From the NCBI RefSeq assembly GCF_024223415.1, contig NZ_CP100500.1: a DNA stretch of 64,000 bases. One strand, written 5' to 3'. Shown here piece after piece: positions 48,501-64,000 of this stretch. The stretch is from Escherichia coli. GTDB lineage: Bacteria > Pseudomonadota > Gammaproteobacteria > Enterobacterales > Enterobacteriaceae. The stretch's first letter is position 1, and the number at the start of each line of letters is the position of its first letter. A program made the position numbers.

Positions 48501-51500
48501 CAATCTGGTTTGCCAGCTCCAGCCAGGCGTGACGTTGACGGTTATCGAGCACTGCGCGGAAGTTTTCTGCCGCTGCCTCTGCATCAAACGGTTCGCCGTT
48601 GGAGAATTTCACGTCATCACGCAGGGTGAAGGTCCAGGTTTTACCATCTTCTGAATGAGTCCAGCTTTTTGCCAGCCACGGGATCACCGAACCATCAGCC
48701 TGATATTTCACCAGCGGTTCATAAACCATGCTCTGGGCGAACATCTGGTTAGGCGTGTAAAGGTGCGGGTTTAGTGGCCCGACATTCACCGGCCAGGCGG
48801 TGGTGATTTCATCTGGTGCAGCGGCATGGACGATAAAAGACGCACAAGCCAGCAGCGCAAATAGAGTGCGGCGGAGTGTGGAGAGCATGGTAACCCCAAT
48901 GGATTAAAATAGATGGCGGAAATAAGTATGACGATTTTAAGTATTCGTCATACTGATTACCTGTTCTGGATCAATAGATGGGCAGTCGGGTGGGCGGATC
49001 AGTTAACTGAATCGATCCATTGCACACTGTCGGCGGTGAGCGTAAAGGGAGTAGGGGTGCAGATCGCCAGGCTTAAATTTTCTAGCTGACAATGGCTGAC
49101 TGACAGCGAGGAGTGATAGGTGCTGTCTACGCTGACGATTTGCCAGGCGCTGCCACCACGCTGTTTAACGATGGCTTCTTTGCGCGTCCAGATGCGCCAG
49201 AACATTTCCAGTTGCTGATCAGGATGCACGGCGTCCATCTCAGCGTGTTCCCCGAGGCTGAATACGGCGTTCGCCAGCCAGCGCCAGTTGGCGCGCGGGC
49301 GAATCACTTCGATATCGCAGCCGACTTCGCCTTCATCACTCAACAGCAGAGCGATATCGTCACCGCTATGGCTTAAGTTGAACCATAGCGGCGTTTCCGG
49401 CGCGAATGCAGGTTTGCCTTGTTCGCCATAGATGATCTCCGGTAGCGGGGAAAGCGTGTGCGAAAGCAATGCACGCCCCGCCAGCCAGCGTTCGCGTCGT
49501 GGACCTTGCGGTGCTTGCTCGCGTAAACCCGGTGGCAGTGGAGCTGCGCTTAAGGTCGAAACTTTCCCCAGAACTATCCGATACATATCAGGGCCAACGT
49601 TTAATGATGATGGATGTATTAATGCCGCCAAAGGCAAAGTTGTTACTCTGCAAAAACTCACAATCAACCTTGCGGGCTTCATGCATGATGTAATCCAGCG
49701 CGCCACAATTCGGGTCTGGTTTATTCAGGTTTAGCGTAGGCGCAAACCAACCTTCGCGCATCATTTGCAGACTCATCCAGGCTTCGAGCGCGCCACAGGC
49801 ACCAAGCGTATGACCAAAATAACTTTTCAGCGAGGAGAGCGGCACATTATCACCGTAAATGGTTGCTGTCGCCAGACTTTCTGCCATATCACCGCGATCG
49901 GTCGCCGTACCATGCGCTGAAATATAGCCGATATCTTGTGCGCTTAACCCGGCGATTTTCAGCGATTGCTCCATACAATACTGCATGGTTTCGCTCTGCG
50001 GCTGGGTAATATGTGCCGCGTCGCAGTTAGTCGCAAAGCCGACGATTTCACCGTAAATGGTCGCGCCGCGCGCTTTGGCGTGCTCCAGTTCTTCGAGAAT
50101 GAGCGTACCTGCGCCTTCACCAATCACCAGCCCGTCGCGGTTTTCATCGAACGGTGAAGGTGTGGTTTTCGGCGCATCATTGTGCTGGCTGGTGGCGAAA
50201 AGCGTATCAAATACCGCTGCTTCTGAAGGACATAACTCTTCGGCACCACCAGCAACCATCACCGTTTGATAACCGTGGCGAATGGCTTCCCACGCATAAC
50301 CGATTGCCTGGCTGCCGGAAGTACAGGCGCTGGAGGTTGGGATCACCCGCCCGCGCAGGCCGAAAAAGAGGCCAGTATTAACGGCGGTGGTGTGCGGCAT
50401 CATCTGCACATAGGTGGTGCCAGTGATGTTATTGGTGTGCTTTTCCGTCAGCATGGTGGCGAACTCGCTTACCGGGCCGGTACTGCCGGTCGATGAACCG
50501 TACGCAATGCCCGTTTCGCCGCTGGTTAATATCGGATCGCCAATCAACCCTGCCTGCTCTAACGCCAGCTCGCTGGCACGGGTCGACATTTGCGACACGC
50601 GGCCCATCGCACGGATACGCTTGCGGGTGTAGTGCTCCGGTAGCGTGAAATCATCAACAGGCGCGCCAAGCAGGGTGTGCAGCCCATCGTAGACCTGCCA
50701 CTCCGGCATTTTGCGCACCGCATTTTCATATGCCAGTAAGCGTGCAGAAACGTCCTGCCAGTTTTCACCAAAGGCAGTCACGCCGCCCATTCCTGTAATC
50801 ACTACGCGACGTGTCATAACATCCCTCCGTTGATGGAAATAACCTGGCGGGTGACGTAACCCGCAATATCAGACATTAAATAACTGGCAAGCCCGGCAAC
50901 TTCTTCCGCCTGGCCCATACGTTTCATGGGGATCATCGACATTGCCTCTTTCAGAGCGCTCTCTTCCATTTCGATCATCCCGGTATCAATAAGCCCTGGC
51001 GCGATGCAATTGACGGTGATTTTGCGCTTTGCGAGTTCGATAGCCAGCGCTTTTGTTGCGCCGATAATTCCGGCTTTGGCAGCGCTGTAATTCACCTGGC
51101 CGCGATTGCCCATTACGCCGGAAACCGAGGACAGCGTGATGATGCGCCCACCCTGGCGCGCGCCGATCATTGGCATAATGCACGGCTGAATGACGTTGTA
51201 GAAACTGTCGAGATTGGTGTGGATCACCGCATCCCAGTCGTCATCGCTTAAAGCCGGAAAAGCGGCATCGCGGGCGATCCCGGCGTTACTGACCACGCCG
51301 TACCAGGCACCGTGTTGCGCGATCTCATGCTCCAGCACTTCCCGACACTGTTCGCGGTTTGCGACGTCGAAACTGAGCAAACGCCCGTTACCCCCGTTGG
51401 CGACAATGGCATTCAGCGTTTCCTGAGCGCCTGTGGCGTCACGGTGATAGTGAACGCCAATGTTAAAGCCGTCTGCCGCCAGTTGGCAGGCGATGGCGCG

Positions 51501-63500: not shown

Positions 63501-64000
63501 TATTTTCTTTCGCTAGTACGATTTGTTGTGGCAGATCTAATAACGTCACGGCGATGTTTTCATTGTATTTGCAGCAACGCAAAGCCCACTTACCCGTATT
63601 GCCGCCTACATCGTACAATGTTGTGGGGTTGTTGGCGAATACATAAGGCAGTGCGGCGTTAAATGCGCCATCTGAATAGTAATGATCAAACGCAAACCAG
63701 CTTTCACGAGCGGCGTCTGGTAATTGCGAAAGTGCCGGATATATCGTCGACCAGTCGCCAAATACTTTTAACCCGGAAGGTTTTCCTTCATTGAGTGAAT
63801 CGGCGAGGAAGAAGAGCCCCTGGTAACAGACATCCTGGGTGAAATCCATATTCACGCGAGTCATAGTGTCATGCAGGAGGTAATGACCGATTTTCGCCAG
63901 GTAATAAATTCCCTCTTTACAGGTAATAATTCGCCCGCTTAAGCCCATATCTAACAGAACGCTGGCAGCATATTCGTTGATATGGCTATGTTCGGTGATA

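What the first reader, a model, noticed from the sequence alone, without database searches (positions are those of the whole stretch)
48999..64000. Aryl-polyene-type type II PKS/FAS-like cluster ends directly at the acpT phosphopantetheinyl transferase gene
Seventeen co-directional, tightly packed or overlapping genes encode a methyltransferase, KS-like protein, PlsC-type acyltransferase, two ACPs, a membrane protein, adenylating ligase, dehydratases, GT2/LpxL-type transferase, thioesterase, LolA-like protein, MMPL exporter, lipoprotein, two KS and a ketoreductase. That is the gene content and order of aryl polyene (APE) pigment clusters. The last KS stop is 1 nt from the acpT start, so the PPTase is probably co-transcribed with its two ACP substrates. 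As I recall, this fits published work describing K-12 AcpT as orphaned from cognate carrier proteins encoded in an island present in O157:H7. The LolA-like, lipoprotein and MMPL genes predict an outer-membrane-anchored lipid product. The first gene is cut by the window edge.
Basis: partly seen in the sequence, partly recalled or inferred. Interest (0 to 1): 0.5.

Follow-up and report, generated by a model that had tools for sequence, protein, structure and literature searches.

The report
E. coli aryl polyene cluster plus acpT

Summary
On the minus strand, window 64000-49588 holds 17 co-directional, mostly overlapping genes. The stop codon of the last one is 1 nt from the acpT start at 49586.

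The region is 100% identical to E. coli SCU-316 and 98% to O157:H7, where it is O-island 138. It is collinear with, and 93% nt identical to, the experimentally characterised CFT073 APEEc cluster (apeB-apeR). The ketosynthases group with solved ApeO/ApeC/ApeR structures and not with FabF/FabB. AcpT and ApeE are identical to the O157:H7 proteins. Published work cited in PMC8253772 shows that AcpT activates the O157:H7 carrier proteins. The finding is therefore correct and already known.

Three modest additions came from this work:
- In 60 of 80 other Enterobacterales species, an acpT homologue starts -1 to +3 nt after apeR, so the PPTase is a conserved terminal gene of the operon.
- K-12-like genomes keep the last 19 nt of apeR in front of acpT, which looks like a deletion scar.
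- E. coli has two lineages of the cluster. One is acpT-linked (about 569 of 5426 genomes). The other is island-borne, as in CFT073 and Nissle (about 259 genomes). They differ by a replaced apeG-H-I cassette, with ApeH only 66% identical.

The parts
63100..64000 (-). apeB, SAM-dependent methyltransferase for the aryl head group. It is cut by the window edge, with about 53 N-terminal codons outside.
   Evidence: Frame open to base 64000. NCBIfam FlxJ-family methyltransferase, 424 bits, matching profile positions 54-352 of 352. 96% identical to CFT073 c1203.
62337..63059 (-). apeC, chain-length-factor partner of ApeO (KS-like, without the catalytic Cys)
   Evidence: Pfam PF13723, E 1e-66. 313 bits to 6QSP chain B, X. 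doucetiae ApeC. RefSeq name 'beta-ketoacyl synthase chain length factor'.
61519..62340 (-). apeD, lysophospholipid (PlsC-type) acyltransferase
   Evidence: TIGR00530 domain hit. RefSeq name. 97% identical to c1201.
61287..61544 (-). apeE, acyl carrier protein 1 (a substrate of AcpT)
   Evidence: NF006617, 90.8 bits, cut-off 70. The protein WP_001148684.1 is identical in O157:H7. The DSID serine motif is visible in the translation.
61024..61275 (-). apeF, acyl carrier protein 2
   Evidence: NF003757, 146 bits, cut-off 65. LELDSIDAV motif.
60438..61019 (-). apeG, COG4648 membrane protein of unknown role
   Evidence: No significant Pfam or NCBIfam hit. RefSeq name 'COG4648 family protein' in a homologue. 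83% identical to c1198.
59080..60441 (-). apeH, adenylating enzyme that loads the aryl starter (4-hydroxybenzoate in characterised systems) onto ACP. This is the divergent allele.
   Evidence: Adenylation-domain hits. TSGSTGQPK motif. Only 66% identical to CFT073 c1197. This allele is in 566 genomes and the CFT073 allele in 259.
58740..59093 (-). apeI, hot-dog dehydratase and partner of ApeP
   Evidence: RefSeq names 'FabZ family' and 'ApeI family dehydratase'. Identical to the O157:H7 protein. 73% identical to the CFT073 protein.
57073..58749 (-). apeJ, a two-domain transferase: N-terminal GT2 glycosyltransferase and C-terminal LpxM/PatA-like acyltransferase
   Evidence: Pfam GT2 over residues 8-131. 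The C-terminal model (pLDDT 71) hits PatA and LpxM at E about 1e-8, probability 1.0. An invariant H-x4-E motif is present in 26 homologues.
56647..57069 (-). apeK, YbgC/FadM-type thioesterase
   Evidence: TIGR00051 hit. The protein is identical to that of CFT073 and O157:H7, WP_000930891.1.
56045..56650 (-). apeL, LolA-like periplasmic carrier
   Evidence: TIGR00547 LolA and NF053544 LolA2_flexi hits.
53758..56076 (-). apeM, MMPL/RND-type inner-membrane exporter
   Evidence: HAE3, HpnN and MMPL hits. RefSeq name 'MMPL family transporter'.
53177..53761 (-). apeN, DUF3261 lipoprotein (LolB-like)
   Evidence: Lipobox LTGC in the translation. RefSeq DUF3261.
52006..53175 (-). apeO, elongating ketosynthase that pairs with ApeC
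   Evidence: NF006618, 554 bits, cut-off 407; FabF model below its cut-off. 586 bits to 6QSP chain A.
51545..52009 (-). apeP, hot-dog dehydratase
   Evidence: RefSeq name 'ApeP family dehydratase'. 99% identical to c1188.
50814..51545 (-). apeQ, 3-ketoacyl-ACP reductase of the FabG2 type
   Evidence: TIGR01831, 476 bits, cut-off 339; the housekeeping FabG model TIGR01830 is below its cut-off.
49588..50817 (-). apeR, FabB-like ketosynthase and last gene of the published cluster
   Evidence: NF006587, 778 bits, cut-off 470. 532-553 bits to ApeR structures 7F27 and 4EWG against 250 bits to FabF.
48999..49586 (-). acpT, Sfp-type 4'-phosphopantetheinyl transferase, starting 1 nt after the apeR stop
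   Evidence: NF007676 equivalog, 396 bits, cut-off 174. Junction sequence TGA-T-ATG. The protein is identical to that of O157:H7. The tight junction is conserved in 60 of 80 species.
49588..49606 (-). Last 19 nt of apeR, which are retained upstream of acpT in cluster-less (K-12-like) genomes. This marks the right-hand boundary of the island and is a probable deletion scar.
   Evidence: K-12-like matches start at this position in every listed genome. Junction sequences were compared directly.
58700..61000 (-). Mosaic segment (3' part of apeG, all of apeH and apeI), only 63-75% nt identical to the CFT073 cluster while the flanks are 96-100% identical
   Evidence: Sliding-window identity. Per-protein identities.

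Best explanation
The region is the native, acpT-linked copy of the E. coli aryl polyene (APE) biosynthetic gene cluster, equivalent to O-island 138 of O157:H7.

The proposed mechanism comes from characterised orthologues and is not shown here:
- AcpT converts apo-ApeE and apo-ApeF to their holo forms.
- ApeH adenylates 4-hydroxybenzoate and loads it on an ACP.
- ApeR and the ApeO:ApeC KS-CLF pair extend it with malonyl units. ApeQ reduces and ApeI:ApeP dehydrates each round, giving a conjugated polyene.
- ApeB methylates the aryl ring.
- ApeK, ApeD and ApeJ release the product and attach it to a lipid anchor.
- ApeG, L, M and N (and ApeA, outside the window) move the pigment lipid to the outer membrane, where it protects against oxidative stress and promotes biofilm.

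acpT is most likely transcribed, and perhaps translationally coupled, as the last gene of this operon. Strains such as K-12 lost the 15.4-kb cluster by deletion and kept acpT alone.
For: Shown here:
- The 17 genes are intact, co-directional and overlapping, and the apeR stop is 1 nt from the acpT start.
- The region is 100% identical to SCU-316 and 98% to O157:H7, with the same yhhT-apeA...apeR-acpT-nikA order.
- It is collinear with the characterised CFT073 BGC c1186-c1204 at 93.2% nt identity.
- The ketosynthases and CLF match solved Ape structures far better than Fab enzymes.
- NCBIfam assigns FabG2, PRK09116, PRK09185 and AcpT above their cut-offs, while the FabF and FabG models fall below theirs.
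- An acpT homologue starts -1 to +3 nt after apeR in 60 of 80 Enteroberales species, although AcpT identity falls to 35%.
- No terminator-like or sigma-70-like site lies at the junction.
- K-12-like genomes keep 19 nt of apeR in front of acpT.

From the literature:
- Heterologous expression of the CFT073 BGC in a K-12 host gives the yellow APE, and deletion phenotypes exist for each gene. AcpT activates the ApeE/F homologues of EDL933 in vitro (PMC8253772, citing De Lay & Cronan 2006).
- The core pathway has been reconstituted for X. doucetiae, and the APE-lipid structure is known (PMC8253772; bioRxiv 10.1101/2020.12.19.423268).
- The roles of the ketosynthases are described in PMC8358021.
Against: No expression or metabolite data exist for this strain. 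The chemically characterised product comes from the CFT073-type cluster, whose ApeH, ApeI and ApeG are only 66%, 73% and 83% identical to those here. Identity of the product is therefore inferred. Co-transcription of acpT rests on spacing and conservation only. acpT must also be expressible without the cluster, because about 85% of E. coli genomes have it alone. OI-138 genes are reported as negatively regulated by RpoS in EDL933 (PMC2907692), so the cluster may be weakly expressed under many conditions.
Confidence: 0.92

Rival explanations
1. acpT is an independent gene that merely abuts the cluster. It would be transcribed from its own promoter inside the 3' end of apeR or elsewhere, and would not be functionally coupled to the ape operon.
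For: All 5425 E. coli genomes with a match carry acpT, and about 85% of them lack the cluster. In those genomes acpT is therefore present without the ape promoter. The CFT073-type cluster works without an adjacent acpT (PMC8253772).
Against: The spacer is 1 nt, with no terminator-like or promoter-like site nearby. The -1 to +3 nt junction is kept in 60 of 80 species while the AcpT sequence itself drifts to 35% identity, which is hard to explain without selection for coupling. There is no obvious Shine-Dalgarno sequence before the ATG, which fits termination-reinitiation.
Confidence: 0.15
2. The acpT-linked cluster makes a product chemically different from the published APEEc, for example with another aryl starter or chain length, because its starter-loading cassette apeG-H-I is a different allele.
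For: ApeH is 66% and ApeI 73% identical to the CFT073 proteins, while the other proteins are 95-100% identical. This is as far apart as E. coli is from Raoultella or Enterobacter. The allele tracks the locus, with 566 and 259 genomes against 569 acpT-linked junctions. I found no paper characterising the product of the O157-type cluster.
Against: ApeH is the fastest-evolving Ape protein across genera. According to PMC8253772, X. doucetiae ApeH adenylates and loads 4-HBA; the ApeH of a related species, X. griffiniae (L082), is about 47% identical to both E. coli alleles. This suggests, but does not show, that the specificity survives much larger divergence. The methyltransferase, ketosynthases and CLF, which set decoration and chain length, are 95-100% identical.
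Confidence: 0.1
3. The genes are ordinary fatty-acid-synthesis paralogues making a conventional lipid, as in the original 'fatty acid biosynthesis island' reading of OI-138.
For: The enzymes belong to the FAS II superfamilies.
Against: The FabF and FabG equivalog models score below their cut-offs, whereas the APE-associated models score above theirs. The best solved relatives are Ape proteins. The 93%-identical CFT073 cluster yields an aryl polyene (PMC8253772).
Confidence: 0.02

Closest known systems
E. coli CFT073 APEEc biosynthetic gene cluster (apeA-apeR, c1204-c1186; Cimermancic 2014 and Johnston 2021, PMC8253772)
   Same: Same 17 genes in the same order with the same lengths. The clusters are 93.2% nt identical, 14 proteins are 95-100% identical, and ApeK is identical.
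   Different: The CFT073 copy sits in a pathogenicity island next to an integrase, IS elements and hemagglutinin genes, not at yhhT/acpT. Homology stops exactly at the apeR stop, so it has no adjacent PPTase. Its apeG-H-I cassette is a different allele, with ApeH 66% identical.
O-island 138 of E. coli O157:H7 with AcpT (De Lay & Cronan 2006, as cited in PMC8253772)
   Same: Same chromosomal site and architecture, yhhT-apeA...apeR-acpT-nikA. The region is 98% nt identical, and the AcpT, ApeE, ApeI, ApeK and ApeQ proteins are identical.
   Different: Only strain-level differences. The window comes from a close relative of a human commensal-type strain (SCU-316), not from O157:H7.
Xenorhabdus doucetiae APE pathway (Grammbitter 2019/2020; PDB 6QSP) and Acinetobacter baumannii ApeO-ApeC/ApeR (PDB 7F28, 7F27; PMC8358021)
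   Same: Homologous KS-CLF pair, second ketosynthase, tandem ACPs and the same overall gene set.
   Different: The sequences are much more distant (the ApeH of X. griffiniae, L082, is about 47% identical). The Xenorhabdus locus recovered here, and the Serratia, Erwinia and Pantoea loci, lack an acpT homologue after apeR.
Flexirubin and xanthomonadin clusters
   Same: They share a FlxJ-family methyltransferase, FlxB-like reductase and LolA2-like protein, and the general logic of an aryl polyene attached to an outer-membrane lipid.
   Different: Those models score below their cut-offs here. Head-group tailoring and the anchor differ according to the literature (PMC8253772).

Membership tests
APE (aryl polyene) biosynthetic gene cluster, APEEc type | Gene content and order collinear with the experimentally characterised CFT073 apeB-apeR | tested here: met
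   A single 14,373-bp alignment at 93.2% identity, with identical gene lengths and order (Table 1 of PMC8253772).
APE (aryl polyene) biosynthetic gene cluster, APEEc type | Heterodimeric KS plus chain-length factor (ApeO:ApeC), distinct from FabF/FabB | tested here: met
   586 and 313 bits to 6QSP chains A and B. Pfam PF13723 for ApeC. The FabF model is below its cut-off.
APE (aryl polyene) biosynthetic gene cluster, APEEc type | Second, FabB-like ketosynthase ApeR | tested here: met
   532-553 bits to 7F27 and 4EWG against about 250 bits to FabF. NF006587, 778 bits, cut-off 470.
APE (aryl polyene) biosynthetic gene cluster, APEEc type | Two tandem dedicated ACPs with the phosphopantetheine-attachment serine | tested here: met
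   NF006617 and NF003757 above their cut-offs. DSI(D) motifs in both translations.
APE (aryl polyene) biosynthetic gene cluster, APEEc type | Adenylating enzyme ApeH specific for a 4-hydroxybenzoate starter | not testable with these tools
   The adenylation domain is present, but the protein is only 66% identical to the CFT073 ApeH. Substrate specificity needs an assay.
APE (aryl polyene) biosynthetic gene cluster, APEEc type | Reductase, dehydratase pair, and the attachment and export module (ApeQ, I, P, D, J, K, L, M, N, G) | tested here: met
   FabG2, LolA, MMPL, thioesterase and acyltransferase hits. ApeI/ApeP family names in RefSeq. The ApeJ C-terminal domain has a PatA/LpxM-like fold.
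APE (aryl polyene) biosynthetic gene cluster, APEEc type | Produces a cell-bound yellow aryl polyene pigment | not testable with these tools
   Shown only for the CFT073 orthologue (PMC8253772). It needs extraction and LC-MS from this type of strain.
AcpT (Sfp-type 4'-phosphopantetheinyl transferase) | Sequence membership in the AcpT equivalog | tested here: met
   NF007676, 396 bits, cut-off 174, full length 1-195.
AcpT (Sfp-type 4'-phosphopantetheinyl transferase) | Modifies the two carrier proteins of the adjacent cluster | not testable with these tools
   Reported in vitro for EDL933 (De Lay & Cronan 2006, as cited in PMC8253772). AcpT and ApeE here are identical to the O157:H7 proteins.
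Single operon apeA-apeR-acpT | Continuous transcript across the apeR-acpT junction | tested here: inconclusive
   The gap is 1 nt, with no terminator-like or promoter-like site, and the junction is conserved in 60 of 80 species. No RNA data are available.
Housekeeping type II fatty acid synthase (FabF/FabB/FabG) | Scores above the equivalog cut-offs for FabF, FabB or FabG | tested here: not met
   FabF TIGR03150 scores 353 and 210 bits against a cut-off of 494. FabG TIGR01830 scores 263 bits against a cut-off of 298.

The most novel reading that the evidence does not exclude
AcpT is the conserved, translationally coupled 19th gene of the ancestral Enterobacteriaceae APE operon, not an accessory 'orphan'. 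The native acpT-linked E. coli cluster (O157:H7 and this strain) carries a starter-loading cassette (apeG-H-I) so diverged from the characterised CFT073/Nissle island copy that it could make a chemically distinct aryl polyene, one that has never been isolated.
Probability: 0.1. Interest if true: 0.4.

Novelty: already known. Interest (0 to 1): 0.15.

Why it matters
APE pigments are made by one of the most widespread bacterial biosynthetic gene cluster families. They protect pathogens from oxidative stress and promote biofilm (PMC8253772). This locus explains why E. coli K-12 keeps a PPTase with no obvious substrate, but that explanation has been published since 2006.

What this work adds is modest. 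The PPTase is part of the cluster in most Enterobacteriaceae, whereas the E. coli model cluster (CFT073) is described as lacking a dedicated PPTase (PMC8253772). E. coli also carries two lineages of the cluster with different ApeH alleles. Only the rarer, island-borne lineage has been characterised chemically.

Tried and rejected
- Sequence searches for the ApeJ C-terminal domain found nothing. This covers Pfam, phmmer against PDB and a 26-sequence profile against PDB. Only the predicted structure linked it to PatA/LpxM.
- ApeG gave no significant Pfam or NCBIfam hit, so its role stays open.
- I looked for the donor of either apeH allele among 80 Enterobacterales loci. Nothing outside Escherichia was closer than 75%.
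- I looked for the 38 nt that are unique to the K-12 yhhT-acpT spacer inside the island. There was no convincing match, so the left breakpoint remains undefined.
- The De Lay & Cronan 2006 paper is not in the held library. Its content is cited only through PMC8253772.
- The simple promoter and terminator scan found nothing at the junction. That is weak negative evidence.
- The reading as ordinary fab paralogues was rejected.
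Full report
**Observation**

The window segment 48999-64000 carries 18 genes on the minus strand. Seventeen of them, apeB to apeR, are co-directional. They are joined by overlaps of 1-32 nt or gaps of 1-40 nt. 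The first gene, apeB, runs off the window edge with its frame open. The last, apeR, ends with TGA at 49590-49588. One T follows, and acpT starts with ATG at 49586. nikA begins 110 nt after acpT, behind a GTATGA-N16-TCATAC palindrome.

**Identity**

The segment is 100% identical to E. coli SCU-316 and 98% identical to O157:H7. Both of those genomes have the order yhhT-apeA-apeB...apeR-acpT-nikA. The AcpT, ApeE, ApeI, ApeK and ApeQ proteins are identical to those of O157:H7 strain BB24-1.

The experimentally characterised APEEc cluster of CFT073 (c1186-c1204; Table 1 of PMC8253772) lies elsewhere in that genome. It sits in an island with an integrase, IS elements and hemagglutinin genes. It aligns with the window as one 14,373-bp block at 93.2% identity, and the block ends exactly at the apeR stop codon. 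Gene order and gene lengths are identical, and 14 of 17 proteins are 95-100% identical.

**Family tests**

- NCBIfam places ApeQ in FabG2, ApeR in PRK09116, ApeO in PRK09185 and AcpT in its equivalog, all above their cut-offs. The housekeeping FabF and FabG models stay below theirs.
- ApeC is a Ketoacyl-synt_2 protein.
- Against solved structures, ApeO and ApeC match X. doucetiae ApeO:ApeC (6QSP) at 586 and 313 bits. ApeR matches A. baumannii ApeR (7F27) and its Paraburkholderia homologue (4EWG) at 532-553 bits, against about 250 bits for FabF. The PDB identities were checked in PMC8358021.
- ApeJ shows only a GT2 domain by Pfam. Its C-terminal 320 residues have no sequence-level hit. An AlphaFold model built from 26 homologues (pLDDT 71) hits only the PatA/LpxM acyltransferase family at E about 1e-8. 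An H-x4-E motif is invariant in the alignment. The 'LpxL-type' label is therefore reasonable.

**Literature**

PMC8253772 reports the following:
- The CFT073 cluster gives yellow, cell-bound APE when expressed in a K-12 host.
- Phenotypes exist for deletion of each ape gene.
- The cluster is described as having no dedicated PPTase.
- The paper cites De Lay & Cronan 2006 for AcpT activating the ApeE/F homologues of O157:H7 EDL933.

The APE lipid of X. doucetiae has been solved (bioRxiv 10.1101/2020.12.19.423268). OI-138 genes appear as negatively RpoS-regulated in EDL933 (PMC2907692).

**Additions from this work**

1. *Distribution.* About 820 of 5426 complete E. coli genomes carry the cluster. 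The apeR-acpT junction is intact in 569 of them. All but one genome have acpT.
2. *Deletion scar.* Cluster-less genomes, including K-12 MG1655, match from 19 nt upstream of the apeR stop onward. They keep CATTAAACGTTGGCCCTGA in front of acpT. This fits a deletion that orphaned acpT.
3. *Conserved junction.* A scan of one genome per species with ApeR returned 80 Enterobacterales loci. In 60 of them an AcpT homologue starts -1 to +3 nt after the apeR stop, although AcpT identity falls to 35% while ApeR stays at 83% or more. These 60 include Citrobacter, Klebsiella, Raoultella, Enterobacter, Kosakonia, Kluyvera, Atlantibacter, Hafnia and Yersinia nurmii. Serratia, Edwardsiella, Mangrovibacter, Erwinia, most Pantoea, Brenneria and Xenorhabdus lack it. 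No terminator-like or sigma-70-like site lies at the junction. This is good comparative support for operon membership and probably translational coupling, but it is not transcript evidence.
4. *Two lineages.* Identity to CFT073 drops to 63-75% nt over window positions of roughly 58700-61000, with flanks at 96-100%. The proteins in that stretch are ApeH 66%, ApeI 73% and ApeG 83% identical. That is as distant as E. coli is from Raoultella or Enterobacter. The window allele of apeH occurs in 566 genomes and the CFT073 allele in 259, including Nissle 1917. These counts match the acpT-linked and unlinked copies. No donor for either allele was found among the 80 loci.

ApeH is the fastest-evolving Ape protein overall. 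X. doucetiae ApeH is reported to load 4-HBA (PMC8253772), and the ApeH of a related species, X. griffiniae, is about 47% identical to both E. coli alleles. I therefore rate a change of product as unlikely, at about 0.1. I found no paper that characterises the product of the acpT-linked type.

**Verdict**

The novelty class is 'already known'. Interest is low, because a specialist would recognise OI-138/APE/AcpT at once. The conserved apeR-acpT coupling and the two-allele structure are useful footnotes rather than discoveries.

Noticed in passing
window 4515-6296 (+), deletion point about 6240-6250: The heme receptor gene chuA carries a 46-bp deletion between two copies of an 11-bp direct repeat (CCGATCGCTCA), relative to the otherwise 99.95% identical SCU-316. 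This shifts the frame and gives a 593-aa ORF instead of 660 aa. It is either a real pseudogene or an assembly error.
   Followed up: partly
window about 58700-61000 (-); L002 27880-30156: The apeG-H-I cassette is a different allele from the characterised CFT073/Nissle cluster (63-75% nt identity; ApeH 66% aa identity), inside flanks that are 96-100% identical. The two alleles occur in 566 and 259 complete E. coli genomes and track the acpT-linked and island-borne copies.
   Followed up: yes
L007-L086, position about 11228-11234 in most loci: An acpT homologue starts -1 to +3 nt after apeR in 60 of 80 Enterobacterales species. It is absent in Serratia, Edwardsiella, Mangrovibacter, Erwinia, most Pantoea, Brenneria and Xenorhabdus. 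In L052 (Pseudocitrobacter faecalis) only an N-terminally shortened match remains.
   Followed up: partly
window 48926-48953: A perfect GTATGA-N16-TCATAC palindrome lies in the acpT-nikA spacer. From my own knowledge it has the form of the NikR operator of the nik promoter. No terminator-like site lies between acpT and nikA.
   Followed up: no
window about 37080-43370: Between nikR and yhhJ there is a block encoding a GntR regulator, PTS IIA/IIB/IIC components, an FGGY kinase, HPr and a class II aldolase, plus a HicAB toxin-antitoxin pair. GC dips to 0.42-0.46 around 42000-43500. This is probably another variable island.
   Followed up: no
window about 8270-8840 and about 28240-29830: RefSeq flags slp and one DUF4049 gene (a yhiJ paralogue) as frameshifted in the near-identical SCU-316 genome. 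I did not check this in the window sequence itself.
   Followed up: no
L004 13323-14491: In strain 100117 (Gambia) the elongating ketosynthase gene apeO is annotated as frameshifted. Some acpT-linked clusters are therefore probably inactive.
   Followed up: no
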